Shown piece by piece: positions 5,671 through 34,068 of a stretch of 44,317 nucleotides of DNA. A program made the position numbers and the translations under genes. Origin of the DNA: a phage. The stretch lies in sequence record PX907402.1. One strand, 5' to 3'. Positions within the stretch are counted from its first letter, which is position 1; the number at the start of each line of letters is the position of its first letter. Below the pieces are notes generated by a model. The model had not been told where the DNA came from and ran no database searches. It saw nothing but the letters and a program-made list of their open reading frames with translations.

Positions 5671-5709
5671 TTGCAATCCTCGTATTGGTTGCACTATATT
5701 GGTTGCACT
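5671..5709 (+). promoter_or_regulatory. Candidate promoter for DnaN-like gene with two ATTGGTTGCAC direct repeats
   Basis: TTGCAA (5671-5676), 18 bp spacer, TATATT (5695-5700); motif copies at 5684-5694 and 5698-5708. Confidence 0.45.
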
Positions 5710-5729
5710 CCAACAACGAGGAAATGACA

Positions 5730-6242
5730 ATGATTAAAGTTAACTATGCTGATCTTAAAGCCGCTATGATGTGCGCCGCAACTAATGACGTGCGATACTA
5801 TCTGAACGGTGTATTTTTCGACGAGAAAGGATTCATTGTGGCCACCGACGGTCATCGCTTGTTCTGCGGGTCAGCGGTTGTTCCCGAAGGTGAAAGTAAA
5901 ATAGTAGCAATTAAAGGCCGCTTACCTACTAAATTCGAATACTGCAACATAGACGGCACATCCGCTGCGTTCTTTGATAGTAAAGACGTATTAATCGGTA
6001 CCATACCCGTAGAGATCGTAGACGGCCGATTCCCTGACTGGCGTAGATTTACGTCTTTTGACCGCGCTAAAGTGGAGGCTATAGGGTTTGCCGGGGCATA
6101 CCTGTCCGACGCCTGCAAAATTGCTAAATTGTTCGACCGTAAGTTTGATAGCTTAAAACTGGAATTTCAAGGAGTAGACAAGGCGACACGTGTGCTGTTC
6201 AAAGGCGGTGCCTTCCTTGTTATCATGCCGATGCGTTTGTAG
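5730..6242 (+). CDS. Truncated beta sliding clamp (DnaN) homologue, about 170 aa
   Basis: Contains DVRYYLNG, ATDGHRL, VDGRFPDWRR and C-terminal VIMPMRL, which I recall as hallmark segments of bacterial DnaN domain II and C-terminus; own promoter, RBS gagga, flanked by terminator; opposite strand to surrounding head genes. Confidence 0.7.
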   Translation: MIKVNYADLKAAMMCAATNDVRYYLNGVFFDEKGFIVATDGHRLFCGSAVVPEGESKIVAIKGRLPTKFEYCNIDGTSAAFFDSKDVLIGTIPVEIVDGRFPDWRRFTSFDRAKVEAIGFAGAYLSDACKIAKLFDRKFDSLKLEFQGVDKATRVLFKGGAFLVIMPMRL

Positions 6243-6246
6243 CTAA

Positions 6247-6283
6247 CAAAAAGGGGGCCATCACGGCCCTCGAATTATTTTTT
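6247..6283. terminator. Bidirectional intrinsic terminator
   Basis: gggcc-atcac-ggccc hairpin with A-run upstream and T-run downstream; overlaps stop of lipoprotein ORF. Confidence 0.5.
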
Positions 6284-6491
6284 GCAACTCCAGCACTTGC
6301 GCCCTTAGCTTAGCACCACACTCCATATTTTTAACATCAACCAGCAAGTCTTCGTCTGGATCTGCCGAGGCATTCTCAAATGTGCAAGGAGGTCTATAGA
6401 CCGACTCGGTTAGCGGCGTCGATGGCACGTTGCTTGATCCGCACGCGCTCATCATCAAAACGGCAATCAGTACGGTTAGGACGCGTAACAT
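6261..6491 (-). CDS. Outer-membrane lipoprotein, putative o-spanin (Rz1-like)
   Basis: Signal peptide with lipobox LMMSAC-G, 76 aa, ATG after aagagg RBS, embedded in alternate frame of overlapping TM/coiled-coil ORF. Confidence 0.45.
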   Translation of the reverse strand: MLRVLTVLIAVLMMSACGSSNVPSTPLTESVYRPPCTFENASADPDEDLLVDVKNMECGAKLRAQVLELQKIIRGP

Positions 6492-6702
6492 ATTTCACAA
6501 CCTCTTTCGTGATAGTCCTGTATTCCACATCGCGGGCCTGTTCTGCCTGCACCGACCCCTCGACGACCTTAGTTTGCTGCCGTTGGGCTTTCGCTTGCGC
6601 TTCTTGCGCCGCTCTCGCCTCAACGCCAGCGCGGTAGGAATCACCCAGCCAGAAGCCAACCGCCAGGCCGATAACCAACCCGATCGCTGCGTATTTAATC
6701 AC
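6394..6702 (-). CDS. Putative i-spanin (Rz-like); start uncertain (GTG 6702 or TTG 6732)
   Basis: N-terminal TM segment IKYAAIGLVIGLAVGFWLG followed by A/Q/E-rich coiled coil; overlaps lipoprotein ORF. Confidence 0.4.
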   Translation of the reverse strand: MIKYAAIGLVIGLAVGFWLGDSYRAGVEARAAQEAQAKAQRQQTKVVEGSVQAEQARDVEYRTITKEVVKYVTRPNRTDCRFDDERVRIKQRAIDAANRVGL

Positions 6703-9302: not shown

Positions 9303-9313
9303 GGTCGGTTTCC

Positions 9314-10699
9314 TTAGTAGAAATCTACGGTAGGAACAACGGCGATTGGACGAATCACAGGGAACAAGTGCGCAATAGGGTAGCCCGCGGCATCGTTCAT
9401 GTGGTCCACACCGGCGGTTTTATCCGGCTCGCCTTTCTTCAGGTCGTAAACCTGCTGTTCCAGACATTTCGCTAGTGTAGGGCATTTATCCAGGTTGACA
9501 AAATACTGGCGCACGCCCTTCGAGTTGCACATCATCGTATTCATCGCGATCAATCGGTCTTTCACAGGCGGGTTAACACTGCCATACTCCACCTCGAAGC
9601 CAGCGTCTTCCAGTTGTGCGATATCGGACGACGACGCGTTGACCGTCTTGCGTGATCTGCCGCTGCTATCAGGGTAAACGACAACACGACCGGCAGCACA
9701 ATGATCGGGGTAGCGCTCCTCGATCGCCTCAATCATAGCCGGGGTGTCAAACAGGTCCACAAATTCATCCACCGCGTGAATCTCGTCGCGGAACTCCTTG
9801 TTCTCGGTGACTCGCTGCCGTCTGACGTACACAACCGCCGCCATCTTCGTGACGTTAAAGTCCATACCGATAATCAGCGTGTCGTCCGGCTTCACTTCTT
9901 CGGTGCTGGCGTTCTCCTCGCGGTTGAACATCTTGTACACCGCGCCCGACGTAAGGTTAACAAACAGGCCGTTCAGGTACGCGTCGATCAGGTTAGCCGG
10001 GTACTGACTGCGCAGCGTGTCGATAAAGTCTGCCGGTAAATGGTGGTTGTCCGTGGTCTTCGCCCGGATCAGGCGCTTCTGGCTATCCTTCTCCACCTCG
10101 AAAATTTGGTACATCGCCCGGTAGCCTTCAGGCGTTGACACGATGACGAACTGGCGGACGAAGCCAGCACGCAGACGACCGAGCAATTTGTGATATGCCG
10201 CCAGCGCGACGTCTTGCTTCGTAGTGTCAAACTCGTCGGCAACAATCCACGCGGCGTTGATACCGATCAGGCGGGTATAGTTCTCCATTGACTCACAGAT
10301 AACGCGAGTCCATTTGCCTTTCACCAGCACGTTGTAAATCTTGTCCTGCTTATTGAACTTCCACCGGAAGCCAGCCTCGTCGAATGCCTTCTCCAGTTCC
10401 GGATACATGATTTTAACCAGGAGTGGAATAGTCGGTTCGGTCACGATGCCGTCATAACCAGGGTTAAGTGTCAGAAGCTGGATGACCTTACGTGCGGCAA
10501 CCCATGACTTGCCACCGCCGAAGCCGGAACACAGGCCGAGGATTTTAGTCTTCGTGTCGCGCAGTAGTTCAACCTGGTGCGGCAAGCAATCAGGCTGGTA
10601 AAGGCGGACGGCCTGCGCAACGCGTGTCGGGCGTGGTGGTCGGTTGCGCTTTGCGATCGTGCGCTCCAGTGCGCGGTGTTCTGCCGCATAGTTACGCAT
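9314..10699 (-). CDS. Terminase large subunit
   Basis: Walker A-like GFGGGKSW and Walker B-like IVADEFD; 461 aa; upstream of portal. Confidence 0.85.
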   Translation of the reverse strand: MRNYAAEHRALERTIAKRNRPPRPTRVAQAVRLYQPDCLPHQVELLRDTKTKILGLCSGFGGGKSWVAARKVIQLLTLNPGYDGIVTEPTIPLLVKIMYPELEKAFDEAGFRWKFNKQDKIYNVLVKGKWTRVICESMENYTRLIGINAAWIVADEFDTTKQDVALAAYHKLLGRLRAGFVRQFVIVSTPEGYRAMYQIFEVEKDSQKRLIRAKTTDNHHLPADFIDTLRSQYPANLIDAYLNGLFVNLTSGAVYKMFNREENASTEEVKPDDTLIIGMDFNVTKMAAVVYVRRQRVTENKEFRDEIHAVDEFVDLFDTPAMIEAIEERYPDHCAAGRVVVYPDSSGRSRKTVNASSSDIAQLEDAGFEVEYGSVNPPVKDRLIAMNTMMCNSKGVRQYFVNLDKCPTLAKCLEQQVYDLKKGEPDKTAGVDHMNDAAGYPIAHLFPVIRPIAVVPTVDFY

Positions 10700-11250: not shown

Positions 11251-11367
11251 GATATAAGCCCTTTTGTTCATATGCGCCGACCATCGGCGACATAGGAGAC
11301 GGCCCTGCCATCTAATGGGGATTATAACAGGCACAAAAAAGCCCACCAAATCGGCAGGCTGGGAGGC

Positions 11368-12719: not shown

Positions 12720-12784
12720 GTTTAATTAATTCCTGATTAGTGGACCGTGGACAATATATCACGGGACTTATCGAGGCGGGCAAT

Positions 12785-12808
12785 AAAAAGCCCGGTATTA
12801 TCCGGGCT
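12785..12808 (-). terminator. Intrinsic terminator after lysis cassette
   Basis: gcccgg-tattatc-ccgggc hairpin followed by T-run on minus strand. Confidence 0.5.
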
Positions 12809-12815
12809 TGATTGT

Positions 12816-14009: not shown

Positions 14010-14043
14010 AAAAAAGTCCCAGTAAGTTTTAGCTCACTGGGAC
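14010..14043 (-). terminator. Intrinsic terminator immediately upstream of lysis cassette
   Basis: gtcccagt-12 nt loop-actgggac hairpin followed by T6 on minus strand. Confidence 0.4.
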
Positions 14044-14061
14044 TATATCACGCTTGCATAA

Positions 14062-15201: not shown

Positions 15202-15350
15202 TGTTCTGTCTCCTCGATCTCGTAAACAGTTTTCGTATCACCATCGCACACCGTAGCGATGCCGTCCATTTCATAGTCCGCTATGCAAGATAACAGGTCT
15301 ACTAATTGCTGCGAATACCCTGCCATTAGCGTTATTTGCATTGGCGTCAT
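15198..15350 (-). CDS. Small hypothetical protein (50 aa)
   Basis: ATG overlaps stop of upstream gene and its stop overlaps ATG of downstream gene (translational coupling pattern); RBS ggagactgagc. Confidence 0.35.
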   Translation of the reverse strand: MTPMQITLMAGYSQQLVDLLSCIADYEMDGIATVCDGDTKTVYEIEETEQ

Positions 15351-15616
15351 TTGCTCAGTCTCCAGTGTTTGCCTACCCGCTCAACGGCGGGCTTCCGGCG
15401 TAATGTAATACGGATCCCCATTGGTTGCAAGGACGTCCGCACCCTGAAATCGTGTTGTGCCGCGAACTGGTGCAAGTAGCGGGTCTGCGTCAGTGGCTTC
15501 ACGTCATCGCGATAGCACCAGAATACAGAATCGCCCTCAACCGCATTCTCAGCCCATATTCGTATGCAATGCAGTGGAATATGCCACGAAAGCTGTTTCG
15601 CTCGTCTGCGGCTCAT
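15347..15616 (-). CDS. Hypothetical protein
   Basis: 89 aa ORF in early minus-strand cluster. Confidence 0.45.
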   Translation of the reverse strand: MSRRRAKQLSWHIPLHCIRIWAENAVEGDSVFWCYRDDVKPLTQTRYLHQFAAQHDFRVRTSLQPMGIRITLRRKPAVERVGKHWRLSK

Positions 15617-16107: not shown

Positions 16108-16134
16108 GTTCCGCCCTCCTGTTGGTGCGCAACC

Positions 16135-16168
16135 AATATATCAAGGTGCCGGGGTGAATGCAACCAAT
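16135..16168 (-). promoter_or_regulatory. Candidate sigma70-like promoter with ATTGGTTGCAT motif
   Basis: Minus strand TTGCAT (16158-16163), 17 bp spacer, TATATT (16135-16140), then ggttgcgc. Confidence 0.45.
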
Positions 16169-16322
16169 ATTAATCACGCGCATGAAAAAGTTGATCGCTA
16201 TCTGCTGTAACTGCAAACCGCATTTTTCACTTCACATAACACAACTCGCATTGGTTGCCTAGTTCATCAACGACCGCGATTCACATCATGCTGCCGTACA
16301 TTATGCAATCCCGGATTTTATG

Positions 16323-16374
16323 CAGTCTCAGACGAGGGGGGCCACTGACCCCCGTCTAGTCTGAAAGACTGGGG
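16323..16374. repeat. Composite element copy B: conserved GC-rich hairpin
   Basis: 51 of 52 nt identical to 44248-44299; imperfect stem gacgaggggg/cccccgtc plus agtct-gaa-agact. Confidence 0.7.
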
Positions 16375-16375
16375 T

Positions 16376-16500
16376 TTGTCCCGCCTGTCCCGCTCCTCGC
16401 CAGGCCGCGTCATCCGGGGCGGGACAGGGGTGCTGTCCCGCTTTGTCCCGCTCCTTGTTTGTCCCGCTTTTTGTCCCGTTTGTTTTATGCAGTTTTATTG
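16376..16500. repeat. Composite element copy B: GTCCCGC iteron array followed by AT-rich tract
   Basis: At least six TGTCCCGC-like repeats at 10-16 bp spacing plus one inverted GCGGGACA; then ttttatgcagttttattgcataac. Confidence 0.65.
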
Positions 16501-16527
16501 CATAACTATTCATAATAATCACGCCAC

Positions 16528-16635
16528 ACGGCAACCAATGCGACCAGATAAAAACACTCAAAATGGCAACCAATGCGCGCACAAATTAATCGTTTAGCGA
16601 TATGTGGATTCCCATATCGGCAACCAATGCGCGCA
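16528..16635. repeat. Three direct repeats GGCAACCAATGCG(C/A) at about 52 bp spacing
   Basis: Direct reading between primase stop and iteron array. Confidence 0.55.
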
Positions 16636-16639
16636 GAAT

Positions 16640-18904
16640 TTAATCTTTTAAGTCGTCATCGGTTGCAGAAAGCGTGATGGGTATATTCGTTTTTATGACG
16701 ATATTCGACGACCCATAGATGGCTCCGGTGTGCGGATCGGTATAAAAACCGAGTACGCCGCGCTCGACCATATCGTCGATTGCCTTCGTCGATGTGCCAC
16801 CTTTTGCCAATCCTGCCTGGCGGACAATTGCCGATTTACTGAATCCGGTATGGTCCGGGTTATCTTCCATCAGTTTTTCCAGGGCCGCGTAAAGTACCTT
16901 TTCTTTTTCGGTGCGCGGTCCGGCGGTGTTCTCTTCCTTAACTGCGGCTTTTCCTGCGGCCTTCGCCTGTTCTATAGCGAACGGTGCCAGGGCGACCGGT
17001 ACGAGGTACAGAGTCTCGTCGCGTGGCGTGGAGGCAATTGGCTTGACGTCCCAACCGGCAACCACATCGCCGAAGTCCGGCCCGGTGCTGGTGGACTGGT
17101 GGGCTTCGAACGCTTCGGACTTGCGGAGATCCACCTTAACCTTGCACTTGAGCAGGACGAAGCCGCGCGGCGCTTGCTTAATGCCGTTACGTGCCTTCTC
17201 ATGATACAGGTTCAATTGTCCGGGCTGGTTGTCGTCCGGTTGCTCCAGGAAGAACGCGGAATCGACAGCACCATGCAGCGCGCCGGACCCGCGGGGGGAT
17301 CTGCTGCCGTTTGCACCTTTCGCCGGGTGGTGAATGACGCCCGCACTGCCGCCGGTATTTTCCGCGATGGCCTTCAGCGCTTTGACCACTTCACCCATAT
17401 CGCTGGCGTTGTTCTCGTCGAACGGTTTAGCATCGGCGGACCGCAACGCAACAGTCTGGTTGAGTGAGTCGAACGCCACCAGGCCAACCGGTTCGCCGTT
17501 AGCGGTGCGGTTGATGAAGCTGATAACTTCGCGCAAGCCTGATTTGCTGGTGATATCCCAGCCGCGTGACTGCAGATCGATAATGTGCAGCTTGTCGAGG
17601 TCGTGCTCGTATTTGATCTGCAATGCTTCTTTGCGCTGGTTAGAGGCTTCACCACCTTCCGCATCGAAATAGAAGCAATGAGACTGGACGACCTTCGCAC
17701 CGCCGAACGGAATACCGGCGGCAACCGCGCCCATCTGCCCCAGCACATAGAAAGACTTACCAATGTTCGACTCGCCCGCCATATACCAGGTCGATTTGAA
17801 GTTAATCAACCCCTCGATAATCGGGTCGTGCTTACTGAACAGCGCAACCGGCTCGTTATCCAGATCCGCATCGGTGCACACGCCGTATTCTTCGCCGTCG
17901 CCAACCGCATCAACAATATGTTCATATAAGGATTCGACTTCTTCGTCGTCCAGCCCCGGAAGGATGGCGGCGATTTGCTTACGGGACATATTGTGTGGCT
18001 CGACGTTCAGGTGGTCCGGGATCCCGATAAGACGTAGCGCCAGGTGCTGGTGCCTATTCAGTTCCGAGCAACACTCGTTGCCTGTGTGCATACACTTGAA
18101 ACGGATCTCGCCATCCTTGACCATGATAGCCGTCGACCCTTCGCCGCTGTGCAGATGTTCGTTCGGGCACGGCACTTCATAACCACGACCGGACGACAGC
18201 GGTTCGAATCCTGCCTGGAAGCACCAATCCAGAATACCGTCCGCCACGCCGTCATCGCCCTGGGTTAGTTCGCGGCGTACTTCCTCTTTCTCCACTCCCA
18301 GCTTATCAGCCAGGCGAAGCAGACGACGGACGCGGGCACGTTTGCCGTAGTGACACTTAACAACCGATTGCTGGTGTGGCAGGTACATAAGGCGGTTTGT
18401 GTCTTTCGTGCAATCATCGAAGTCCACATCTGACAGGCCCAGTTGGTGTAATAGTGCATACTGTACGCGGCCCAGGTCTTCCGCCGGTACAGGATTATCG
18501 GTGAGCACCAGGAAACGAGCGCAACGCGTGCCGCCTTTCAGCGGGTGGCGGTCGCCGGTTGTGGTGTGGAATACATGTTCCAGTCCCGCGTCGATGAATG
18601 CCTTACGGCAGCGGCGTAAGGTGCGGGTGTCGGTACGGTCAATATCGAAGAACAGGATCGAGCGGTCCACCGCACTGGTCTTACGACGCAATCCGTCACA
18701 GGTATACGCCACGATGCCATCGGCCTTACGCTTGCGGCGCGCATACTCGGCTTTATCTTCCGTCCTGTTGATATGCACCGAGGATATTTCTTTCGCATCA
18801 TTGATAAATTCGAAGAACTCTTCGGTAGTCATCTGGAAGTTTTCCGCCCTGGCTTTTTCGCCTTTTTTAGCGGGTCGTGTTACAGCGAATTTAATTAAGC
18901 TCAT
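16640..18904 (-). CDS. Primase-helicase (prim-pol-like N-terminus, Cys-rich finger, RecA/DnaB-like ATPase)
   Basis: ILFFDIDRTD acidic motif, CPNEHLH...CMHTGNEC cysteine cluster, Walker A GESNIGKS and Walker B LVAFDSL. Confidence 0.75.
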   Translation of the reverse strand: MSLIKFAVTRPAKKGEKARAENFQMTTEEFFEFINDAKEISSVHINRTEDKAEYARRKRKADGIVAYTCDGLRRKTSAVDRSILFFDIDRTDTRTLRRCRKAFIDAGLEHVFHTTTGDRHPLKGGTRCARFLVLTDNPVPAEDLGRVQYALLHQLGLSDVDFDDCTKDTNRLMYLPHQQSVVKCHYGKRARVRRLLRLADKLGVEKEEVRRELTQGDDGVADGILDWCFQAGFEPLSSGRGYEVPCPNEHLHSGEGSTAIMVKDGEIRFKCMHTGNECCSELNRHQHLALRLIGIPDHLNVEPHNMSRKQIAAILPGLDDEEVESLYEHIVDAVGDGEEYGVCTDADLDNEPVALFSKHDPIIEGLINFKSTWYMAGESNIGKSFYVLGQMGAVAAGIPFGGAKVVQSHCFYFDAEGGEASNQRKEALQIKYEHDLDKLHIIDLQSRGWDITSKSGLREVISFINRTANGEPVGLVAFDSLNQTVALRSADAKPFDENNASDMGEVVKALKAIAENTGGSAGVIHHPAKGANGSRSPRGSGALHGAVDSAFFLEQPDDNQPGQLNLYHEKARNGIKQAPRGFVLLKCKVKVDLRKSEAFEAHQSTSTGPDFGDVVAGWDVKPIASTPRDETLYLVPVALAPFAIEQAKAAGKAAVKEENTAGPRTEKEKVLYAALEKLMEDNPDHTGFSKSAIVRQAGLAKGGTSTKAIDDMVERGVLGFYTDPHTGAIYGSSNIVIKTNIPITLSATDDDLKD

Positions 18905-18914
18905 TGCCGTTGCC

Positions 18915-19244
18915 TTACTTTGAAGTTTTATTATTGCGTACCCAGGAGCGCACTGTGCTCTGATTAATTCCGGTCAACTCGGCGATCATTGCCCAGGATT
19001 TGCCCTCGGCGCGCAAACGGATAACCTGTTTTTTGTATTCTTCCATTTCTTCATTGTGTTTTTGCAGCTTGCTTGCTGCCGTGCCGTTGAGCAATTCCAG
19101 CTTCGCGGTAAGCTCCTTCTCAGCACGCGATAATCTGGACACTTCAAATAACACAGCCCCCACGGCATCGGTGTATGCCCATGACCGGCTTGTCTCACTG
19201 CAAACAGTCTTCGTTAACATTTCGATTGCGTCGTTTACATTCAT
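18915..19244 (-). CDS. HTH-domain DNA-binding protein (putative transcriptional regulator)
   Basis: C-terminal KSWAMIAELTGINQSTVRSWV helix-turn-helix-like segment; 109 aa. Confidence 0.45.
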   Translation of the reverse strand: MNVNDAIEMLTKTVCSETSRSWAYTDAVGAVLFEVSRLSRAEKELTAKLELLNGTAASKLQKHNEEMEEYKKQVIRLRAEGKSWAMIAELTGINQSTVRSWVRNNKTSK

Positions 19245-19420: not shown

Positions 19421-19450
19421 TTGACACCCATCCTGCAACCAATCTATTAT
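19421..19450 (+). promoter_or_regulatory. Strong candidate early promoter
   Basis: TTGACA (19421-19426), 18 bp spacer containing TGCAACCAAT, TATTAT (19445-19450). Confidence 0.55.
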
Positions 19451-19646
19451 TCACCCCGTCGACAGGATGCAGGACGCAAACTGGAGAGGGGCAACGCAGG
19501 GGCCGGATCGAAGTGTCAGGATTCCCAACCGTGATTATATAACCAGGTCCACTACCCGAACGGGAGAACGCGTAACCTGGCAATATGTTAAGGCCACCGA
19601 CGAAGTTAACTGCCGACACCTAAACTTAACCAATCGGAGATATACC

Positions 19647-21994: not shown

Positions 21995-22229
21995 AGTATT
22001 CGCAATCTTATTGATGTTTGTTATCGGCGCGCTGGGCTTTATCCTGCATTGTGTGCAAGGCGTGTTAATGGTGGCGTGGATGATTCGACATCCGACCAGC
22101 TGGTTGGATGACGGCTATAGCGAAGCTGCCGTCGATTGGGTGGAGAAGAACATCAACCGCCCGCCGTTAAGCTGGATCGAGAACGCTACCAACTACGTTA
22201 CCAGAAATCTTTTTAATGAAAATGCTTGA
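21987..22229 (+). CDS. Hypothetical small membrane protein
   Basis: 80 aa, hydrophobic N-terminal helix. Confidence 0.45.
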   Translation: MNKVFAILLMFVIGALGFILHCVQGVLMVAWMIRHPTSWLDDGYSEAAVDWVEKNINRPPLSWIENATNYVTRNLFNENA

Positions 22230-22264
22230 CCGCTCAGGCGCAACCAAGTAAATTGGCAACCAAG
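22226..22264 (+). promoter_or_regulatory. Candidate promoter with GCAACCAAG motifs flanking -10
   Basis: TTGACC, 17 bp spacer ending gcgcaaccaag, TAAATT, then ggcaaccaag. Confidence 0.4.
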
Positions 22265-26285: not shown

Positions 26286-26560
26286 CACCAGAAGGCAAGA
26301 TTCAAAGCCACCTGATGAGACGGGTGAAAGATGTTGGCGGATTCTGCCGAAAACTGGCATGGGAGGGGCGCGCAGGTGCGCCAGACCTGATTATTATCAT
26401 CAACGGCAAAATAGTGTTCGTCGAAGTGAAGCGCCCCGGAGGAAAACCGAAGCCGCACCAGGTACGTGAACATGAGCGAATGGCCCGCCGCGGTGCTGAC
26501 GTTCGCGTTATCGACAACATATCCGACTGCGATTTATTGGTTGCTGAATTGGTCGCATAG
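26282..26560 (+). CDS. VRR-NUC domain nuclease
   Basis: GAPDLIIIINGKIVFVEVKRPGGKPKPHQ matches VRR-NUC core (PD...EVK). Confidence 0.65.
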   Translation: MTPEGKIQSHLMRRVKDVGGFCRKLAWEGRAGAPDLIIIINGKIVFVEVKRPGGKPKPHQVREHERMARRGADVRVIDNISDCDLLVAELVA

Positions 26561-26600
26561 CGGTATAGTGTGCCGGTTAGCCATATCGAGGATTTTAGAG

Positions 26601-26804: not shown

Positions 26805-26811
26805 GGGAGAC

Positions 26812-27036
26812 ATGACGATGAAAGAACATTACCGACTCACCAAGCTGGGCGAATGTAAACCGGGCGATCGCGTATGGTTTATCGCGGGCATGAATGATCC
26901 GCTGCCGTTGACGGTGTGCTGGCAAAAATTTAAGAGCTTCCGGGCTACCGGTGTGCACATCGGACACGCCACCAACTACGACGCTACAAAAAGGAACTGG
27001 AACAGTGAAACCGAAGTCTGGAAAAAGGCGGAATAA
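26812..27036 (+). CDS. Hypothetical protein
   Basis: 74 aa ORF after terminator. Confidence 0.4.
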   Translation: MTMKEHYRLTKLGECKPGDRVWFIAGMNDPLPLTVCWQKFKSFRATGVHIGHATNYDATKRNWNSETEVWKKAE

Positions 27037-27040
27037 AGAA

Positions 27041-28465
27041 ATGGCACGATTCCGACGCCGCGAATATCAGAAGTTGATAACCGCGTTCATCCTCAAGCAT
27101 AAGCGATGTAATATATGGGCGACAATGGGATCCGGTAAAACCGGCGCGACAATGTGGGCGCTGAATAAAATGTTCCAGACTGGCATCCTGTCGAACCAGG
27201 AGGACCGCGTACTGGTGCTGGCCCCGCTGCGCGTTGCATCCGGCACCTGGCCCCCGGAACAGGAGAAATGGCGGTTCTCATCCCTGCTGGTTGTAGACGG
27301 CACCGGGCCGGAGAAGGACCGTATTGCAGCGCTTGAGAGCGACGCTAACGTGGTTTGTGTTAACTACGATGTGGTTGAGTGGCTGGTCGACTATTACGGC
27401 GATGCGTGGCCCTTTACGGTCGTTGTTGCCGATGAATCCACTAAGCTGAAAGGCTACCGAAGCAAGCAGGGAAGTAAGCGCGCACGCGCACTGGCAGCGA
27501 TTGCACATAAACACGTCAAGCGCTGGATTAACCTGACCGGCACACCAGCGCCAAACGGCTTGAAAGACCTGTGGGGGCAGACGTGGTTTGTCGACGGTGG
27601 CGAACGACTCGGCAGTAGTTATAAGGCATTCACCGATCGCTGGTTCATTAGCAAGCCTGTTAAGCCTGGCAGCTTCACGATGCAGCACGCCCCGCTAAAG
27701 AACTCCGAGAAAGAGATACAACAACGTCTGTCTGATGTGTCCCTAACCGTTGACGCGGCTGAATACTTCGGATGCGACAAGCCAATCTATACGCCGGTTG
27801 TTGTGGACCTGCCGAAGAAAGCCCGCAAGATTTATGACCAGTTTGAAAGCGAGCTATTTGCCGAACTGGAAAGCGGAACAGTGGAAGCGGCGAACGCGGC
27901 ATCGAAGACAATTAAGTGCCTTCAGCTTGCATCCGGGGCCGTGTATAAGGTGGACGAAGACGGCGAACGGACCGACGAGTGGGTGAAAATTCACGACGCG
28001 AAGCTGGACGCGCTGGAAAGTATCGTGGAGGAGTTGAACGGCGCGCCGTTGCTCGTCGCGTATCAGTATAAACATGACCTGGCTCGTCTTAAGAAGAAAT
28101 TTCCGCACGGCGTTGCGTTGGGTAAAGGTAAGCAGGGCAATAAGGATATGGAAGCGTGGAACAGGGGCGAGATCCCCATCATGTTTGCGCACCCGGCATC
28201 GGCAGGCCACGGCCTTAACTTGCAGGACGGCGGTCATCACCTGGCAATCTTCTCCGATACATGGAACTTTGAGCATTTTTCGCAGATCGTTGAACGTATC
28301 GGGCCGGTTCGCCAGATGCAGGCCGGACACCCTCGACCGGTATTCGTCTACATTATCCAGGCGCGCGGCACACTGGATGAACTGGTCGCCGAACGTCGCG
28401 ACAGCAAGCGGGATATCCAGGACGACTTGATGGAATACATGAAAGCTAAAAAGGCGCGCAAATGA
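27041..28465 (+). CDS. SNF2/DEAD-like superfamily 2 helicase
   Basis: Motif I ATMGSGKT, motif II VVADESTK, motif III NLTGTP. Confidence 0.8.
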   Translation: MARFRRREYQKLITAFILKHKRCNIWATMGSGKTGATMWALNKMFQTGILSNQEDRVLVLAPLRVASGTWPPEQEKWRFSSLLVVDGTGPEKDRIAALESDANVVCVNYDVVEWLVDYYGDAWPFTVVVADESTKLKGYRSKQGSKRARALAAIAHKHVKRWINLTGTPAPNGLKDLWGQTWFVDGGERLGSSYKAFTDRWFISKPVKPGSFTMQHAPLKNSEKEIQQRLSDVSLTVDAAEYFGCDKPIYTPVVVDLPKKARKIYDQFESELFAELESGTVEAANAASKTIKCLQLASGAVYKVDEDGERTDEWVKIHDAKLDALESIVEELNGAPLLVAYQYKHDLARLKKKFPHGVALGKGKQGNKDMEAWNRGEIPIMFAHPASAGHGLNLQDGGHHLAIFSDTWNFEHFSQIVERIGPVRQMQAGHPRPVFVYIIQARGTLDELVAERRDSKRDIQDDLMEYMKAKKARK

Positions 28466-29157
28466 TTATCTGGTCATTATTTGACGGCAGCGGCTTGATG
28501 ATTGAGCGTGCTGCCGAGATGGGGCATAAGTGTTATTGCTTCAACTACTCCGAAGCCGATCACGGATCATACCTTGACTACCGGATTTATGGTCGCGGAA
28601 TACGCTATCGCAATGAGTTTATCGATCTGGACTTTGTAGATCGCGCGATGAATGGCGATTTCGGTACGCCAGATATCATCTACGCATTCCCGCCGTGTAC
28701 TGATCTGGCGGTGAGCGGTGCGCCAGCTTTCCCGCGCAAACGCGCCCGCGACCCGGCCTTCCAGCTTAAGGCGGTGCGCACCGCGAAGATCGCAGCTTAC
28801 CTGGGTGACTTCTTCGAAGTGCCATATATGATTGAGAATCCGCGCAGTGTGCTTTCCACCCAGTGGCGCAAGCCAGACCACTCGTTCGACCCGTGGGAGT
28901 ATGGGGGATATCTGCCGGAGGATGACGTACACCCGCTCTTCCCGGAATACATCAACGCCCGCGATTCATATCCGAAGCTGACTTGCTTATGGACCGGCAA
29001 CGGCTTCCGTATGCCAGAGAAGAAACCTGTTTTCGTTGAAAAAGGGTACTCGAAGCAGTATAGTCGCCTCGGAGGCAAATCAGCCCGCACAAAATTAATC
29101 CGGTCGCTCACCCCGCGCGGCTTCGCGATAGCGGTCAATGAGGAAAATTTAAAATGA
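28462..29157 (+). CDS. DNA cytosine-C5 methyltransferase-like protein (short, 231 aa)
   Basis: Motif I-like LFDGSG, motif IV-like FPPCTDLAVSGA (Pro-Cys), motif VI-like ENPRSVL. Confidence 0.55.
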   Translation: MIIWSLFDGSGLMIERAAEMGHKCYCFNYSEADHGSYLDYRIYGRGIRYRNEFIDLDFVDRAMNGDFGTPDIIYAFPPCTDLAVSGAPAFPRKRARDPAFQLKAVRTAKIAAYLGDFFEVPYMIENPRSVLSTQWRKPDHSFDPWEYGGYLPEDDVHPLFPEYINARDSYPKLTCLWTGNGFRMPEKKPVFVEKGYSKQYSRLGGKSARTKLIRSLTPRGFAIAVNEENLK

Positions 29158-29477
29158 ATACTACATTCGAAGCCATTGATTTTTCGGTTGCAATGACTAA
29201 CCAGTTATTCTCCTACGACAGCAAAACCGGCGTCATTCGTCTGAAGTCCACCGGCTGCAAAATTGGCAACCTTAACACTGCCGATGGCGGCACGCGCATC
29301 GAATGCAACGGCAAGACGCTGTCTGGCGCACGCGTGGCGTGGATTATTGAGACGGGCCATACAATCCCTCCAGGCTTCGCCGTTGTGTGCCGCCAGCGCA
29401 CTCCAGGGCACTACGGCAACCGCATGAGCAACCTGTATCTGGTAGACGTTGCGCGCGACCCGAACTTTTATGCGTAA
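29154..29477 (+). CDS. Hypothetical protein, possible degenerate HNH/AP2-like DNA-binding domain
   Basis: 107 aa; weak resemblance only. Confidence 0.3.
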   Translation: MNTTFEAIDFSVAMTNQLFSYDSKTGVIRLKSTGCKIGNLNTADGGTRIECNGKTLSGARVAWIIETGHTIPPGFAVVCRQRTPGHYGNRMSNLYLVDVARDPNFYA

Positions 29478-29511
29478 ATTGGTTGCATAATCATATTGGT
29501 TGCATTATATT
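29478..29511 (+). promoter_or_regulatory. Candidate promoter with two ATTGGTTGCAT direct repeats
   Basis: Motif copies 29478-29488 and 29495-29505; TTGCAT (29483-29488), 17 bp spacer, TATATT (29506-29511). Confidence 0.5.
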
Positions 29512-29559
29512 GAGGGTGTCCGGTTTGGACGCCCTTTTTTAATACCTGGAGACACCACG

Positions 29560-30490: not shown

Positions 30491-30695
30491 CCGCAGTATG
30501 CGCGTCGTGGACGAAATTGTTAAACGCTACCAAATTAACCCGAGGGAGAACAAAGTACGGCGGGTCAGCCGCCCGGAGCAATTGCTCGGCCTGGACCTTA
30601 CCGGCTGGCTTGTAATGACGGCCCGCTATCATCTTGTGTGTGACACGTTTTCCGCCCGTATTGTTCGTACGAATCTTATCGAGGAGTTGAAATGA
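30471..30695 (+). CDS. Hypothetical protein (start uncertain: TTG 30471 or ATG 30498)
   Basis: Small ORF with gaaggag RBS before TTG. Confidence 0.3.
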   Translation: MNILIVDRSMRVVDEIVKRYQINPRENKVRRVSRPEQLLGLDLTGWLVMTARYHLVCDTFSARIVRTNLIEELK

Positions 30696-31162
30696 AACTA
30701 CTGATTTGTGATCTGGATGGCGTTATTAACGGTTCAAGCGACGCGCGTGCCGACCTGGTGCCGGGGATAAAAACGAAATCAACCTTTTGGGCAAAGTGGC
30801 ACAAAGCGCACGTCCGCGAAGACCTGAACATGGATATGCTGCCGCTGCTGCGCATGTACAAAGAGCAAGGCTTCGAGATAGCGTATCTGACAAACCGGCA
30901 GCGCGAATGTTGGGACACCACCGCCGAGCAACTGAAGGTCTTCCCTGTAGGTCGGTTGTTTATGCGCCACATGTTGGACGACACCCCACCGCCTGAGTTT
31001 AAGGCGTGCGCCGTGTTCAAAATGGTCTGCTACGCGGACGTGTCTGAACTTGTCATCATTGAGGACTGCCCGAAGAACATCGCGGCAATTCGTCGGGCGT
31101 GCAGCGATCTGGTCCCGAAAATTTACGCAATTAACGTTGCAAAATTCACTTGCAACCAATAG
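30692..31162 (+). CDS. HAD-superfamily phosphatase / nucleotidase-like
   Basis: N-terminal LICDLDGVI (DxDG motif I); later YLTNR and IIEDC. Confidence 0.55.
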   Translation: MKLLICDLDGVINGSSDARADLVPGIKTKSTFWAKWHKAHVREDLNMDMLPLLRMYKEQGFEIAYLTNRQRECWDTTAEQLKVFPVGRLFMRHMLDDTPPPEFKACAVFKMVCYADVSELVIIEDCPKNIAAIRRACSDLVPKIYAINVAKFTCNQ

Positions 31163-31179
31163 GTTGGTTGCATTATATT
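31150..31179 (+). promoter_or_regulatory. Candidate promoter containing perfect palindrome TGCAACCAAT-AGG-TTGGTTGCA
   Basis: TTGCAA (31150-31155), 18 bp spacer, TATATT (31174-31179). Confidence 0.5.
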
Positions 31180-31221
31180 TAACTCGTCGGGGCAATACGG
31201 CCCCGCTAAAGGAAAAACATC

Positions 31222-31776: not shown

Positions 31777-31818
31777 TTCTAATAGCGGGCTTCGGCCCGC
31801 ATCAATGAGGGCCACACA

Positions 31819-32394
31819 ATGTACGGCGAATATGAAATAACAGGTAAACAATTCCACCTGGCGGCAATGATCGCAAGCATAGAGTTTGACCAGTGGCGGT
31901 ATAAGTCCGACGCGTGCAAGCAAAGCAGACTCGTCGGTGTGCTGGGCGAAATGTTTGCAGGCATGTACCTCGAAGGGCAGGCGGGCGGGCGTAGCTGTAT
32001 CCCGCAAGGTTTGCTAATGCGTACCGGCCTGTTTAGCGCCAACACCATTGACCGCGGCGATATTATCATGGTCGGCAAACGCAAGGTGAAGTCCGGGCCA
32101 GACTTCCGTGAGCATGTGATCGATGCCGTATGGACATATGAGGTTAAGGCCACAAGCGGCATACGTCGCGGGCTGGTCGATGCACGTTGCGCTCGCGAGT
32201 ATCTCACTCGTCGCGTTGCCGGTGTTATCCTGGTGGGCGTAGATTTCGGGCAGCATAGCGCGCACGGCGTTATTGAAGATATCGCGGAACCGTACGTGAT
32301 TGTGAATGACTGGCCTATTGTTGAAGTAGACGGCAAGGAATATTACGAAAGTCCGCTGGTGCGGCGCAAAATGGATTGGGAAAACTCAAACTAA
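31819..32394 (+). CDS. Hypothetical protein
   Basis: 191 aa ORF; possible D...E-V-K nuclease-like motif, unconfirmed. Confidence 0.45.
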   Translation: MYGEYEITGKQFHLAAMIASIEFDQWRYKSDACKQSRLVGVLGEMFAGMYLEGQAGGRSCIPQGLLMRTGLFSANTIDRGDIIMVGKRKVKSGPDFREHVIDAVWTYEVKATSGIRRGLVDARCAREYLTRRVAGVILVGVDFGQHSAHGVIEDIAEPYVIVNDWPIVEVDGKEYYESPLVRRKMDWENSN

Positions 32395-32414
32395 AAAAGG
32401 GGCCATACGGCCCC
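32393..32414. terminator. Bidirectional terminator between convergent plus and minus units
   Basis: ggggcc-atac-ggcccc with A-run upstream and T-rich downstream. Confidence 0.55.
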
Positions 32415-32420
32415 TTCTCG

Positions 32421-34019
32421 TTATGATTTAGCCTGTGCCGCTACTGCAGCTTTCAGTTCCTCCAGTTCTTTCTGCATATCATCCATCTTATCCATCAGTG
32501 CTAGTATGGCTTCGTGATGTAGCGCGGCGGACACCCCCGCTGTGTCGACGCTCATTACATCTTCAACAACTGTATCATCTTCAAGTGTGACAGGGTTTTT
32601 GTTTACCACTCTAACAGCATCTGGAAAATACTTTTGCACTTCCTGTGCTACAAAACCAAAACCTTTAAGTGGGTTATTTTTGAAGCGCATAGTCCATGAT
32701 ACGCCTCGAATAGAGCGCATCTTAGTTAGCGGGTCCGCTATTCTAACTATATTTTTTTTTACTCTGATGTCGGATGTGTTGACCCAGTTTGCGGCGCTTG
32801 CGGTGCCGTTGTTATTGAATACATAGTCACAATTCATACCCTGACCGCTGTAAACTGACAGTTGGCATGCCGCCATATCCTGACCGGAACCACGTATACC
32901 ACCGATACGCCACGCGCCATCGAACCATCCGCCTTCTAAATAGTTCGCCCAACCTGACGCCGGCGTGTCTGCCGGGTTCCACATCCAGATGTGGTTTCGG
33001 GGAATACCGTCCGGTATTCCAAAAAAGCGTCCGATGTTGCCGAACACATCGAGAGGCCGAACGACAGGCCATAAGTCCGCAACCTTGTTTACGCCAGTAC
33101 CACCAGACTCGACTGCAAGAGGCGTGCTGAAGGTTTGCGCCTGGGACCATGTGTTTGCGCCGTTTAGTGTCGGCACGTTATCCCCAGACGTGCCGACATT
33201 TAGCGTCGCCGCGGACCCCAAGCCTAAGTTACCCCGCGCTGCCGTTGTGTCGGCAACGTCGCTAAGGTTGTTGCCCTTTGCCAGAAATCTAGACGGGTCG
33301 ATCTCATTCTTGAATTGTTCGGCTTCGTTCCGGTATCCCTGCGCGGCAGTGCTGGCGGCTTGCGCGGCAGTGCTGGCGGCTTGCGCGGCAGTGCTGGCGA
33401 CGTTGGCCTCGTCCCTCATAGCGCCGGTGTCAGTCTTGATCTGGTTCGTCTGGTCCTTGATGGTCTGCGTATCCGTCTTAATCTGGTTGGTGGCGTCGCG
33501 AATACTAGCCGTCTCGGTCTTGAAGCCTTCGGCCTCATTGCGAAACCCTTGCGCGGCTGCTTCCGATGCGGCGGTTTGTTGTTGCAGGTTGCGCATTTCA
33601 ACTGGGTCAACTTGCTTCATCAATTGCGACAGGTAACCCCAGGACATACCCTGCATAACTTGCCCGTTCGGTAGCGTTACCGTGATTTCTTCTTCGTCTC
33701 CGAAGATTGCGCGCCAGTTGTTTTCGTCCGCGATCATCAAGCGCAACGCTTTCTGCGCTTGGACGGTTACGCCCATCGTTGCCAGTGACATGGTATCGCG
33801 CTTAACGCCATCCCACGCAAGGCCGGTTGCCGTTGGGCCGTCGAACGGCAGAACCAGAGTGAGCGACGTGTCGCTTTCAACGGACGCGATTGCCACGGTG
33901 TAGGGGACTTGTCCTACAACCAGCGTTAAGAAGTCGCCTGCGTTAAACGCGGTAAACGTCGTGCCGACCCCGACAACCGCCTTGCTGTTATTCGTTACGG
34001 ATAGAGTACCCGCTGCCAT
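32421..34019 (-). CDS. Tail fibre protein with C-terminal intramolecular chaperone (peptidase S74-like) domain
   Basis: C-terminal SDIRVKKNIVRIADP...VDTAGVSAALHHEAILALMDKMDDMQKELEELK resembles the auto-cleaving chaperone of phage fibres/endosialidases; internal (STAAQAA)x3 repeat. Confidence 0.75.
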   Translation of the reverse strand: MAAGTLSVTNNSKAVVGVGTTFTAFNAGDFLTLVVGQVPYTVAIASVESDTSLTLVLPFDGPTATGLAWDGVKRDTMSLATMGVTVQAQKALRLMIADENNWRAIFGDEEEITVTLPNGQVMQGMSWGYLSQLMKQVDPVEMRNLQQQTAASEAAAQGFRNEAEGFKTETASIRDATNQIKTDTQTIKDQTNQIKTDTGAMRDEANVASTAAQAASTAAQAASTAAQGYRNEAEQFKNEIDPSRFLAKGNNLSDVADTTAARGNLGLGSAATLNVGTSGDNVPTLNGANTWSQAQTFSTPLAVESGGTGVNKVADLWPVVRPLDVFGNIGRFFGIPDGIPRNHIWMWNPADTPASGWANYLEGGWFDGAWRIGGIRGSGQDMAACQLSVYSGQGMNCDYVFNNNGTASAANWVNTSDIRVKKNIVRIADPLTKMRSIRGVSWTMRFKNNPLKGFGFVAQEVQKYFPDAVRVVNKNPVTLEDDTVVEDVMSVDTAGVSAALHHEAILALMDKMDDMQKELEELKAAVAAQAKS

Positions 34020-34034
34020 AGCTAAATCCTCATA

Positions 34035-34068
34035 ATTGGTTGCATTCTTGATCGAGCGGTGTAATACT
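34035..34068 (+). promoter_or_regulatory. Candidate promoter for lipoprotein moron
   Basis: ATTGGTTGCAT with TTGCAT (34040-34045), ~17 bp spacer, AATACT. Confidence 0.4.

What the first reader, a model, noticed from the sequence alone, without database searches (positions are those of the whole stretch)
5684..34045. Recurrent ATTGGTTGCA(Y) motif embedded in at least seven sigma70-like promoters (operator-like)
Candidate promoters at 5671-5709, 16135-16168 (minus), 19421-19450, 22226-22264, 29478-29511, 31150-31179 and 34035-34068 all place a GGTTGC/GCAACC-core 10-mer directly against the -10 hexamer, often with a second copy forming a direct repeat or a perfect palindrome (31151-31172). In several cases the -35 TTGCAT is part of the motif itself. 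Three more copies lie at 16528-16635. Occurrence in both orientations at a fixed position favours a binding site for a phage regulator (repressor or activator of the early/moron promoters) over a simple promoter consensus.
Basis: seen in the sequence. Interest (0 to 1): 0.55.

Follow-up and report, generated by a model that had tools for sequence, protein, structure and literature searches.

The report
Conserved operator-like motif in phage promoters
A 10-base sequence, (A/G)TTGGTTGC(A/C/G), sits inside almost every early, middle and accessory-gene ("moron") promoter of this virulent E. coli phage and flanks its likely replication origin; it is conserved in a second phage genus, so it is very probably the binding site of a still unidentified DNA-binding regulator.

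Summary
The window is a near-complete Dhillonvirus genome (HK578/SO-1-like virulent siphophage). ATTGGTTGCA with at most 1 mismatch occurs 19 times against 3.1 expected. The exact core TTGGTTGC occurs 20 times against about 2.3 expected, and 15 of those 20 lie in the 6.3% of the genome that is non-coding (P about 1e-14).

- **Position:** the motif takes three fixed registers in sigma70-type promoters: A supplies the -35, B fills the spacer next to the -10, and C overlaps the end of the -10 and runs to about +1. Most promoters carry two copies. Two promoters carry it inverted.
- **Other copies:** four more copies (CGCATTGGTTGCC) flank an iteron and hairpin block just downstream of the primase-helicase gene.
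- **Conservation:** motif bases are 92% identical to a relative of about 78% overall identity, against 73% for other intergenic bases, while the spacers between paired copies diverge. Edwardsiella phage eiAU (Eiauvirus) uses the same core in the same registers.
- **Late promoters:** candidate late promoters have an extended -10, no -35 and no motif.

Best reading: an asymmetric operator for a sequence-specific protein, most likely shutting off early/middle promoters. The binder is unresolved. The 109-aa coiled-coil-HTH protein has an invariant HTH but is absent from eiAU. The 380-aa phosphoesterase is rejected. Interest is moderate, and the kind of element is already known.

The parts
5671..5707 (+). 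Promoter P5671 for a variable accessory ('moron') gene (5730-6242). -35 TTGCAA 5671-5676; motif copy 5684-5693 in the spacer (slot B); -10 TATATT 5695-5700; motif copy 5698-5707 overlapping the -10 (slot C), extended to TTGGT-N5-(A/T)CCAA.
16128..16168 (-). Promoter P16168 for the leftward operon of small genes (16107 to 14062, ending at terminator 14044-14015). Motif 16168-16159 supplies the -35 TTGCAT (slot A); 17-nt spacer; extended -10 TGATATATT 16143-16135; motif 16137-16128 in slot C, followed by ACCAAC and the RBS.
16250..16259 (+). Origin-type copy CGCATTGGTTGCC on the left side of the TGTCCCGC iteron and hairpin block. It is an exact inverted repeat of the three copies on the right side.
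16530..16628 (-). Three origin-type copies (16530-16539, 16565-16574, 16619-16628) with spacing 35 and 54, each (T/G)CGCATTGGTTGCC. They lie just downstream of the primase-helicase gene. No convincing -10 is associated with them.
16658..16667 (+). One-mismatch copy ATCGGTTGCA inside the last codons of the primase-helicase gene. Divergent relatives have exact copies at the same place.
19421..19450 (+). Promoter P19421 for the rightward early operon. -35 TTGACA 19421-19426; inverted motif TGCAACCAAT 19434-19443 in the spacer; -10 TATTAT 19445-19450.
22226..22264 (+). Promoter P22226 upstream of the Gp2.5-like SSB and DNA polymerase genes. -35 TTGACC; inverted core GCAACCAA 22240-22247; -10 TAAATT 22249-22254; second inverted core 22256-22263.
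26536..26569 (+). Motif ATTGGTTGCT 26536-26545 supplies the -35 TTGCTG; second copy ATTGGTCGCA 26548-26557 (12-bp spacing); -10 TATAGT 26564-26569. Conserved in relatives; eiAU has the same layout.
29478..29511 (+). Promoter P29478. Motif 29478-29487 (slot A, -35 TTGCAT 29483-29488); motif 29495-29504 (slot B); -10 TATATT 29506-29511. Terminator hairpin 29512-29536 follows immediately.
31150..31179 (+). Promoter P31150. Inverted motif 31151-31160 overlaps the -35 TTGCAA; forward motif 31163-31172 (slot B); -10 TATATT 31174-31179. In relative LM40P1 the upstream copy is forward instead.
34035..34068 (+). Promoter P34035 for the 72-aa gene 34099-34317, whose homologues are annotated as superinfection exclusion protein (UAE_MI-01) and putative phage lipoprotein (SO-1). 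Motif 34035-34044 supplies the -35 TTGCAT; -10 TAATAC/AATACT at 34062-34068. LM40P1 has gained a slot-B copy and a TATATT -10 here.
15420..15429 (+). Exact copy inside gene 15347-15616 (antisense strand), conserved in UAE_MI-01 and LM40P1. Role unknown.
18915..19244 (-). Candidate binder: a 109-aa protein with a long coiled-coil helix (residues 22-79) and a C-terminal three-helix HTH (HTH_23 / Sigma70_r4_2 / LuxR-GerE-like). Residues 49-106 are almost invariant across the family, while the N-terminus is hypervariable.
16640..18904 (-). Alternative candidate binder: the 754-aa primase-helicase with a variable C-terminal ~100 residues. The motif arrays abut its 3' end in three genera.

Best explanation
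The 10-mer (A/G)TTGGTTGC(A/C/G) is an asymmetric operator: the recognition site of one sequence-specific DNA-binding protein, read one copy at a time.

In Dhillonvirus nearly every sigma70-type promoter for early, middle and accessory ('moron') genes carries one or, usually, two copies on top of the RNA-polymerase contact region. The copies sit at about -40..-31 (where the motif's own TTGCAx is the -35), at -23..-14, or at -9..+1.

Inferred mechanism: these promoters can fire with host polymerase alone at the start of infection. Once the binder accumulates it occupies the copies, occludes the polymerase and shuts the whole promoter class off. The late genes are served by motif-free promoters with an extended -10 and no -35.

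Further copies flank the origin-like iteron block next to the primase-helicase gene. There the same protein could couple replication to transcription, or simply be titrated.

Shown here: enrichment, non-coding location, fixed registers, selective conservation, and sharing with a second genus. Inferred only: that a protein binds, that the effect is repression, and which protein it is. The 109-aa coiled-coil-HTH protein is the best Dhillonvirus candidate.
For: - Enrichment: 19 against 3.1; 20 against 2.3, with variants at background.
- Location: 15 of 20 copies in the 6.3% non-coding DNA. It is the top intergenic-enriched 7-mer in the window and in eiAU.
- Registers: across five genomes the -10 starts at +27 (14 cases), +10 (13) and -4/-5 (10) from the core start.
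- Footprint: 92% against 73% identity to LM40P1, Fisher 1e-9. Spacers between paired copies diverge while the copies persist, and copies turn over in orientation or number while staying in the promoter.
- Inverted copies in P19421 and P22226 are conserved. That is hard to explain by polymerase contacts.
- Non-promoter arrays lie beside the origin-like module in Dhillonvirus, eiAU and Tsm2.
- More divergent Dhillon-like contigs (about 72% identity) keep 13 copies per 20 kb, including one in the leader of the HTH/primase operon.
- The HTH of the 109-aa protein is invariant across its family while the rest varies, as expected for a regulator locked to many sites. The model shows a long coiled coil plus an HTH, which could place two HTHs on two flexibly spaced copies.
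- Candidate late promoters lack the motif.
Against: - No binding, transcription-start or expression data exist. No paper on the motif was found.
- eiAU uses the same core in the same registers but has no homologue of the 109-aa protein. It has an unrelated Cro/C1 HTH at that locus, which motif-less phages VSiP and AH01 also share. So no identified DNA-binding protein matches the motif's distribution.
- Spacings between paired copies (9, 12, 13, 14, 16, 17, 31 bp) are not helically phased. This excludes a rigid dimer.
- Part of the motif (TTGCAx) is itself -35-like, and in slot C it provides GG after the -10 and an A near +1. Some of the conservation could therefore come from the polymerase.
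- The early/late class assignment rests on gene content and terminators, not on data.
Confidence: 0.55

Rival explanations
1. The motif is primarily a replication element: the recognition site of the phage primase-helicase or another initiator, in the manner of the octamer iterons bound by the phage P4 alpha protein. On this reading the promoter-embedded copies are a secondary use that ties early transcription to the level of initiator.
For: Arrays of the core abut or enter the 3' end of the primase-helicase gene in three genera: window 16530-16667, eiAU 26870-27635 (11 copies), Tsm2 9373-9487. eiAU has no other obvious iteron there, and it repeats the motif at the second repeat region near the genome ends. 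The protein has a variable C-terminal ~100 residues. VSiP and AH01 have the one-base variant TTGGCTGC at the equivalent place.
Against: Dhillonvirus, VSiP, AH01 and Tsm2 each have a separate, genus-specific GC-rich iteron in the same module (TGTCCCGC, GGGGGAGA, TTGTCCG, GTGCGGAA). These iterons are confined to the origin-like regions and are better initiator-site candidates. In the window 13 of 17 functional-looking copies are in promoters. Orientation of the copies around the block is opposite in eiAU and Dhillonvirus. The C-terminal domain fold was not modelled.
Confidence: 0.15
2. No extra factor exists. The 10-mer is part of an extended, phage-specific promoter consensus read directly by host sigma70 RNA polymerase, comparable to the unusually long consensus of T4 early promoters.
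For: In slot A the motif's TTGCAx lies exactly 17 nt from the -10. In slot C it overlaps the -10 and gives GG at -6/-5 and an A near +1. The copies are found almost only with promoters, and related motif-less phages also use GTTGCAC-type -35 regions.
Against: The same 10-mer in three registers would need three unrelated polymerase contacts. Inverted copies in the spacer are conserved. Four to eleven copies occur in arrays without a -10. The invariant TTGG lies outside the -35 hexamer.
Confidence: 0.12
3. The site belongs to a host transcription factor conserved in Enterobacterales that both phage genera exploit. Possible types are a CytR-like protein that reads GTTGCATT-type octamers in flexible arrangements, or a GntR/FadR-type protein that reads ATTGGT half-sites.
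For: The motif is shared by phages whose neighbouring HTH genes are not orthologous. The copies show flexible spacing and orientation. Several copies contain GTTGCATT, and slot-C copies form TTGGT-N5-ACCAA. The consensus sequences of these host factors come from my own knowledge and were not tested.
Against: The invariant part is TTGGTTGC. The bases after GC are not conserved: A in 46% at +8 and none conserved beyond, so the CytR octamer is not what is conserved. Most copies have no dyad partner. The preferred base at -1 differs between genera (A against G). No other motif-rich phage group was found in viral contigs. The scan of bacterial genomes was swamped by unrelated repeats.
Confidence: 0.1
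4. The repeats are boundary sequences for recombination. They would be mobile promoter cassettes like the promoter-early stem-loops of T4-type phages, kept alike by exchange rather than by binding a factor.
For: P5671 is conserved while the gene behind it differs between relatives. Hairpins follow P22226, P29478 and P31150.
Against: Only the 10-mer is conserved, not the surrounding cassette. The copies are too short for homologous exchange. The core is identical in a genus with little nucleotide similarity.
Confidence: 0.05

Closest known systems
Mycobacteriophage L5 gp71 operators and 'stoperators' (from established knowledge, not tested here)
   Same: A short asymmetric site present in many dispersed copies in short intergenic spaces. 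One class overlaps an early promoter, and each copy is read singly.
   Different: L5 is temperate and gp71 is its immunity repressor. Stoperators are all co-oriented with transcription and act on elongation between genes. Here the phage is virulent, the copies sit in promoter cores (two inverted), and no gp71-like gene or integrase was seen.
Phage P1 C1 repressor operators (from established knowledge)
   Same: An asymmetric operator scattered over the genome as single or paired copies that overlap promoters of many operons, including replication functions.
   Different: The P1 site is 17 bp, the phage is temperate and it has a dedicated immunity system. The sequence is unrelated, and no homologue was looked for specifically.
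Phage P4 alpha (primase-helicase) type I octamer iterons at ori and crr (from established knowledge)
   Same: An asymmetric octamer repeated in both orientations next to a primase-helicase gene. The window has two distant repeat regions (A and B), annotated as repeat regions in the SO-1 record.
   Different: P4 iterons are not promoter elements. In the window, region A lacks TTGGTTGC, and a second iteron (TGTCCCGC) fits the ori/crr pattern better.
T4 MotA boxes of middle promoters (from established knowledge)
   Same: A phage-specific element that replaces or overlaps the -35 of otherwise sigma70-type promoters.
   Different: The MotA box has one fixed position (about -30) and activates transcription. 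Here there are three registers and inverted copies, and the hexamers are already good.
Global regulons of broad-host-range plasmid RK2 (KorA and KorB operators; from established knowledge)
   Same: One small regulator and many operators placed over the -10/-35 of most operons of a mobile genome.
   Different: The KorA/KorB operators are palindromic and belong to plasmid maintenance. There is no sequence relation.

Membership tests
sigma70-type promoter | A -35-like and a -10-like hexamer separated by 16-18 nt, upstream of a gene on the same strand | tested here: met
   Eight sites have 16-18-nt spacers. Several -35 hexamers (TTGCAT) match only 3 of 6 positions.
sigma70-type promoter | A mapped transcription start | not testable with these tools
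   No transcript data are available.
Cro/CI-type palindromic phage operator | Dyad-symmetric site of about 14-20 bp | tested here: not met
   The consensus is asymmetric and the flanks carry no information. Only 31151-31172 is an inverted pair.
Cro/CI-type palindromic phage operator | Overlap with the core promoter | tested here: met
   Registers at +27, +10 and -4/-5 relative to the -10.
L5 gp71-type asymmetric operator / stoperator | Asymmetric site present in many dispersed intergenic copies | tested here: met
L5 gp71-type asymmetric operator / stoperator | All copies co-oriented with transcription | tested here: not met
   P19421 and P22226 carry inverted copies. The origin-type copies occur in both orientations.
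L5 gp71-type asymmetric operator / stoperator | A cognate gp71-like immunity repressor in a temperate genome | not tested
   No search with gp71 was made. The HTH proteins detected by Pfam scans of 33 window and 21 eiAU proteins were the 109-aa protein and eiAU gp29. Published descriptions of relatives report no integrase or repressor.
Replication-origin iterons (P4 alpha type) | At least 3 repeats clustered next to the initiator gene | tested here: met
   Window 16530-16628 plus 16250 and 16658; eiAU 11 copies; Tsm2 4 copies.
Replication-origin iterons (P4 alpha type) | The same repeats at the second cis region (crr-like) | tested here: not met
   Region A of the window (44180-44317 plus 1-130) has TGTCCCGC but no TTGGTTGC. 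The feature is met in eiAU.
Replication-origin iterons (P4 alpha type) | Binding by the initiator | not testable with these tools
   Needs biochemistry.
T4 MotA box | A single fixed position centred near -30 | tested here: not met
   Three registers and both orientations.
CytR operator | GTTGCATT octamer as the conserved unit | tested here: not met
   The conserved unit is TTGGTTGC. Position +8 is A in 32 of 69 copies, and +9 and +10 are not conserved.
GntR/FadR-type box (PdhR/UxuR-like) | ATTGGT-Nx-ACCAAT dyad | tested here: not met
   Only slot-C copies have a partial partner (TTGGT-N5-ACCAA). Most copies have none.
T4-type promoter-early stem-loop cassettes | Conserved promoter plus a downstream stem-loop flanking variable ORFs | tested here: inconclusive
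   Hairpins follow three promoters and the gene behind P5671 varies between relatives. But only the 10-mer is conserved, not a cassette.

The most novel reading that the evidence does not exclude
TTGGTTGC is read by the replication machinery itself: the primase-helicase, or a partner conserved between Dhillonvirus and Eiauvirus such as the degenerate homing-endonuclease-like 107-aa protein (29154-29477). The build-up or redistribution of that protein between origin arrays and promoter cores would then be the clock that turns off early and middle transcription in a virulent siphophage that has no dedicated repressor. This would be an initiator-titration switch acting on a whole genome.
Probability: 0.15. 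Interest if true: 0.7.

Novelty: new member of a known kind. Interest (0 to 1): 0.5.

Why it matters
Dhillonviruses are among the commonest E. coli siphophages in isolate collections, including the BASEL set, and are used in defence-system and phage-therapy work. How they time their gene expression has not been described in the papers I could search. This motif defines a testable regulon: eight promoters and an origin-flanking array. It gives a simple handle for finding the regulator, for example by pull-down on the 10-mer, and for engineering expression of inserted genes. It also splits the promoters into two classes: motif-bearing -35/-10 promoters, and motif-free promoters with an extended -10. 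That split predicts how the early-to-late switch works. Sharing of the site between two genera whose neighbouring HTH genes are not orthologous is the unexplained part and the most interesting one.

Tried and rejected
- **Literature:** I searched for Dhillonvirus plus promoter, for the motif strings, for HK578/SSL-2009a/SO-1/EP23 papers, and for the motif plus phage/promoter/operator. Nothing describes the motif. One search was badly framed and useless.
- **380-aa phosphoesterase as binder:** rejected on its distribution across phages.
- **Other HTH proteins:** Pfam scans of 33 window proteins and 21 eiAU proteins found only the 109-aa protein and eiAU gp29. An HMM of the 109-aa family run against six-frame translations of eiAU, Tsm2, VSiP and AH01 gave only coiled-coil noise.
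- **Proteins shared by motif-using genera:** those shared by Dhillonvirus and eiAU but not by VSiP or AH01 are the 107-aa NUMOD/HNH-like protein, the Dam-like methyltransferase (also in Tsm2) and the structural module. Five genera are too few to decide. Distant relatives of the 107-aa protein in viral contigs share only its N-terminal part and show no motif enrichment.
- **Collection scans:** two scans of viral contigs for paired copies, or a copy plus a -10, returned mostly tandem coding repeats and chance hits, and no new motif-rich phage group.
- **Sigma54 promoter:** rejected because the GG-to-GC spacing is wrong (read from the sequence).
- **Second promoters:** slot-B or slot-C copies acting as the -35 of further promoters was rejected, because no -10 lies 16-18 nt downstream.
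- **Origin-type copies as promoters:** rejected, because there is no conserved -10.
- **RNA families:** Rfam gave no hits.
- **Fold search of the 109-aa model:** it found only generic LuxR/GerE/resolvase-type HTH matches, none with E <= 0.001.

Full report
**What the window is.** The window is about 92% identical over about 90% of a 20-kb query to Escherichia phage SM_S22, Sodalis phage SO-1, SSL-2009a and about 150 other records of the genus Dhillonvirus. Its gene order matches the annotated genome of UAE_MI-01 and SO-1. It is a virulent siphophage genome of 44.3 kb. One long leftward block carries small early genes, lysis, packaging, head and tail genes. A leftward pair encodes a 109-aa HTH protein and a 754-aa primase-helicase. 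A rightward replication and nucleotide-metabolism block spans 19.4-32.4 kb. Two rightward accessory genes ("morons") sit inside the structural region.

**The observation.**
- ATTGGTTGCA with at most one mismatch occurs 19 times against 3.14 +/- 1.72 in dinucleotide shuffles, and no shuffle reaches 19.
- The invariant part is the 8-mer TTGGTTGC: 20 exact copies against 2.3 expected under a second-order Markov model. Every single-base variant stays at background, at most 7 copies.
- With a curated gene map, 15 of the 20 copies lie in the 6.3% of the window that is non-coding (binomial 1e-14). Two more lie in the last codons of the upstream gene but inside a promoter.
- Three copies are inside genes. 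Two of these (39499, 42849) are about what chance predicts.
- Over 69 distinct copies from four Dhillon-like genomes the consensus is A(72%)/G at -1, then TTGGTTGC, then A/C/G but almost never T at +8. Nothing is conserved beyond that. The site is therefore asymmetric and about 10 bp long.

**Anatomy.** Relative to the -10, the motif occupies three registers.
- Slot A: the motif's own TTGCAx is the -35, with a 17-nt spacer (P16168, P26536, P29478, P34035).
- Slot B: the motif ends one base before the -10 (P5671, P29478, P31150).
- Slot C: its ATT is the end of TATATT and it runs to about +1 (P5671, P16168).

In five genomes the -10 (at least 5 of 6 matches) starts at +27 from the core start in 14 cases, at +10 in 13 and at -4/-5 in 10. 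P19421 and P22226 carry the motif inverted in slots B and C. P31150 has an inverted copy over the -35 and a forward one in slot B. Most promoters have two copies.

The promoter of the HTH/primase operon (TTGACA-17-TAGTTT, about 19316-19288, minus strand) has only a degenerate GTTGGT-N5-ACCAAC in the window. More divergent relatives have an exact copy in that leader.

**Copies that are not in promoters.** The 530-bp gap downstream of the primase-helicase gene is annotated in SO-1 as repeat 'region B', similar to 'region A'. It holds a block of TGTCCCGC iterons, a long hairpin and TTATGCA repeats. Four copies of the extended form CGCATTGGTTGCC flank this block, one on the left and three on the right, and they form exact 13-14-nt inverted repeats. 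None has a credible or conserved -10. Region A (the window ends) shares the hairpin and the TGTCCCGC iterons but has no TTGGTTGC.

**Evidence of selection.** Alignments of each promoter with UAE_MI-01, SO-1 and the most divergent record, LM40P1 (about 78% identity), show the copies intact while the bases between paired copies change freely. In P29478 that spacer reads AATCAT, AACCGT, AATTAG or TGCGAG.
- Motif positions are 92% identical to LM40P1 against 73% for other intergenic positions (Fisher 1e-9).
- Copies turn over without leaving the promoter. In LM40P1 the inverted upstream copy of P31150 is replaced by a forward one, and P34035 has gained a slot-B copy.
- Metagenomic Dhillon-like contigs of about 72% identity carry 13 copies per 20 kb at the same places, sometimes as 9-bp tandems.

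**A second genus.** Edwardsiella phage eiAU-183 (Eiauvirus) aligns with the window at the nucleotide level only in part of the helicase gene, at 66%. It has 23 copies, with the consensus GTTGGTTGCA.
- The core is among its most over-represented 8-mers, and its 7-mers are the most intergenic-enriched words.
- It uses the same layouts: slots A+C at 18148/18116, and slot A plus a 12-bp-spaced copy at 42946/42934, like window 26536/26548.
- It has 11 copies in the 900-bp gap after its helicase-primase gene.
- Serratia phage Tsm2 has 12 copies: four inside the 3' end of that gene in different reading frames, and one in the early divergent region.
- Salmonella phage VSiP and Pantoea phage AH01 share the replication module but have 0 and 1 copies. 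They have a few TTGGCTGC near the equivalent module.
- The origin-like module is homologous across these genera but carries genus-specific GC-rich iterons that are confined to the one or two origin-like regions and never occur in promoters. TTGGTTGC is therefore a different class of site from those iterons.

**Promoter classes.** The motif-bearing promoters serve the following genes:
- the small leftward genes that end at a strong terminator (14044-14015);
- the replication genes;
- two accessory genes, one of which is replaced by other genes in relatives while its promoter stays.

The lysis, packaging and head genes are instead preceded by terminators followed by extended -10 elements without a -35 and without the motif: TGTTATAAT 11329-11321, TGATATATT 12761-12753, TGATATAGT near 14048 and TGATAATAT near 5645. 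These are too few for statistics, but the split is consistent. The timing labels are my inference from gene content.

**Who binds?**
- The 380-aa metallophosphoesterase is excluded by its distribution.
- The 109-aa protein has Pfam hits above threshold to HTH_23, Sigma70_r4_2 and HTH_28. Its model (pLDDT 85) is a 58-residue helix followed by a three-helix HTH of the LuxR/GerE/resolvase kind.
- Its family is confined to Dhillon-like contigs. Residues 49-106, including the recognition helix STVRSWVRN, are almost invariant, while the N-terminal 40 residues are replaced several times. That fits a regulator frozen by many operators, and a coiled-coil dimer could reach two flexibly spaced copies.
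- Against it, eiAU, Tsm2, VSiP and AH01 have an unrelated Cro/C1-type HTH at that locus, and eiAU has no homologue anywhere.
- Proteins shared by the motif-using genera but not the others are a degenerate NUMOD/HNH-like 107-aa protein, a Dam-family methyltransferase and the structural module. None can be singled out.
- The primase-helicase is a candidate because of where the arrays lie, but the genus-specific iterons are more likely to be its sites.
- A host factor cannot be excluded.

**Mechanism and confidence.** I put about 0.55 on 'operator of a trans-acting protein that sits on the promoter core and represses this promoter class'. The remaining weight goes to a primarily replicative role (0.15), direct polymerase recognition (0.12), a host factor (0.10) and recombination boundaries (0.05). 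Within the leading explanation, I would give the 109-aa protein roughly one chance in three of being the binder in Dhillonvirus.

**Comparison and novelty.** Dispersed asymmetric operators controlling many promoters are known from my own knowledge, not tested here: the P1 C1 operators, the L5 gp71 operators and stoperators, and the RK2 KorA/KorB regulons. Octamer iterons next to a primase-helicase gene are known from P4. This case shares features with each but fails at least one defining feature of every one (see the membership table). It has not been described in the literature I could search. I rate it a new member of a known kind, of moderate interest. The open question is how two genera with different neighbouring HTH genes share one site.

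Noticed in passing
window 19451-19646; L390 (phage tunus MN850638.1) 1424-1671: P19421 is followed by a leader of about 190 nt. The real start of the first gene is probably ATG 19647, not the ATG at 19467. The leader is homologous to an unannotated intergenic leader in T1-like Drexlerviridae: a 52-nt core at 92% identity, with about 150 nt alignable through indels that are not multiples of three. There is no Rfam hit and the fold is no more stable than shuffles (z = +1.24). It may be a conserved non-coding leader or RNA shared by unrelated coliphage families.
   Followed up: partly
window 11321-11329(-), 12753-12761(-), about 14044-14052(-), about 5636-5650(-): The late leftward genes are preceded by an intrinsic terminator followed by an extended -10 element (TGTTATAAT, TGATATATT, TGATATAGT, TGATAATAT). 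These have no -35 and no TTGGTTGC, which suggests a second, -35-independent promoter class.
   Followed up: partly
window 16260-16520 (region B) and 44180-44317 plus 1-130 (region A): Two distant non-coding regions share a roughly 50-nt hairpin (CAGTCTCAGACGAGGGGGGCC...GACCCCCGTCTAGTCTGAAAGACTG), TGTCCCGC iterons and TTATGCA repeats. Related genera have the same module with their own iteron: GGGGGAGA in VSiP, TTGTCCG in AH01, GTGCGGAA in Tsm2 and GGTGCC in contig L265. It looks like an ori/crr-type pair. The window begins inside region A.
   Followed up: partly
whole window and loci L001, L004, L005, L006, L128: The 8-mers ACGGCAAC, ACGGCAGC and CAACGGCA occur 20-34 times (up to 34 in AH01), about 10-fold over a second-order Markov expectation, in most of these genomes: the four Dhillonvirus/Eiauvirus genomes and AH01 (Guernseyvirinae). 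VSiP shows only the overlapping word CGGCAACA (21 copies), and Tsm2 shows none of them among its top words. They lie mostly on the sense strand of genes. Whether this reflects codon or peptide bias or a polar signal was not resolved.
   Followed up: partly
window 29506-29536 and 14015-14052: A terminator hairpin begins one base after the -10 of a promoter. The predicted start therefore falls inside the 5' arm, so upstream transcripts would stop while transcripts from the new promoter escape. This is a compact terminator/promoter overlap.
   Followed up: no
window 5730-6242 against L001 and L004: The gene behind P5671 is annotated as RusA-like in SO-1. UAE_MI-01 and LM40P1 have unrelated genes there, while the promoter and motif copies are conserved. 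This is a moron slot.
   Followed up: partly
window 18915-19244 (family P0001-P0024): The 109-aa HTH protein family has an almost invariant C-terminal 58 residues but at least four unrelated N-terminal segments. This suggests modular swapping of a partner-binding or sensing domain.
   Followed up: partly
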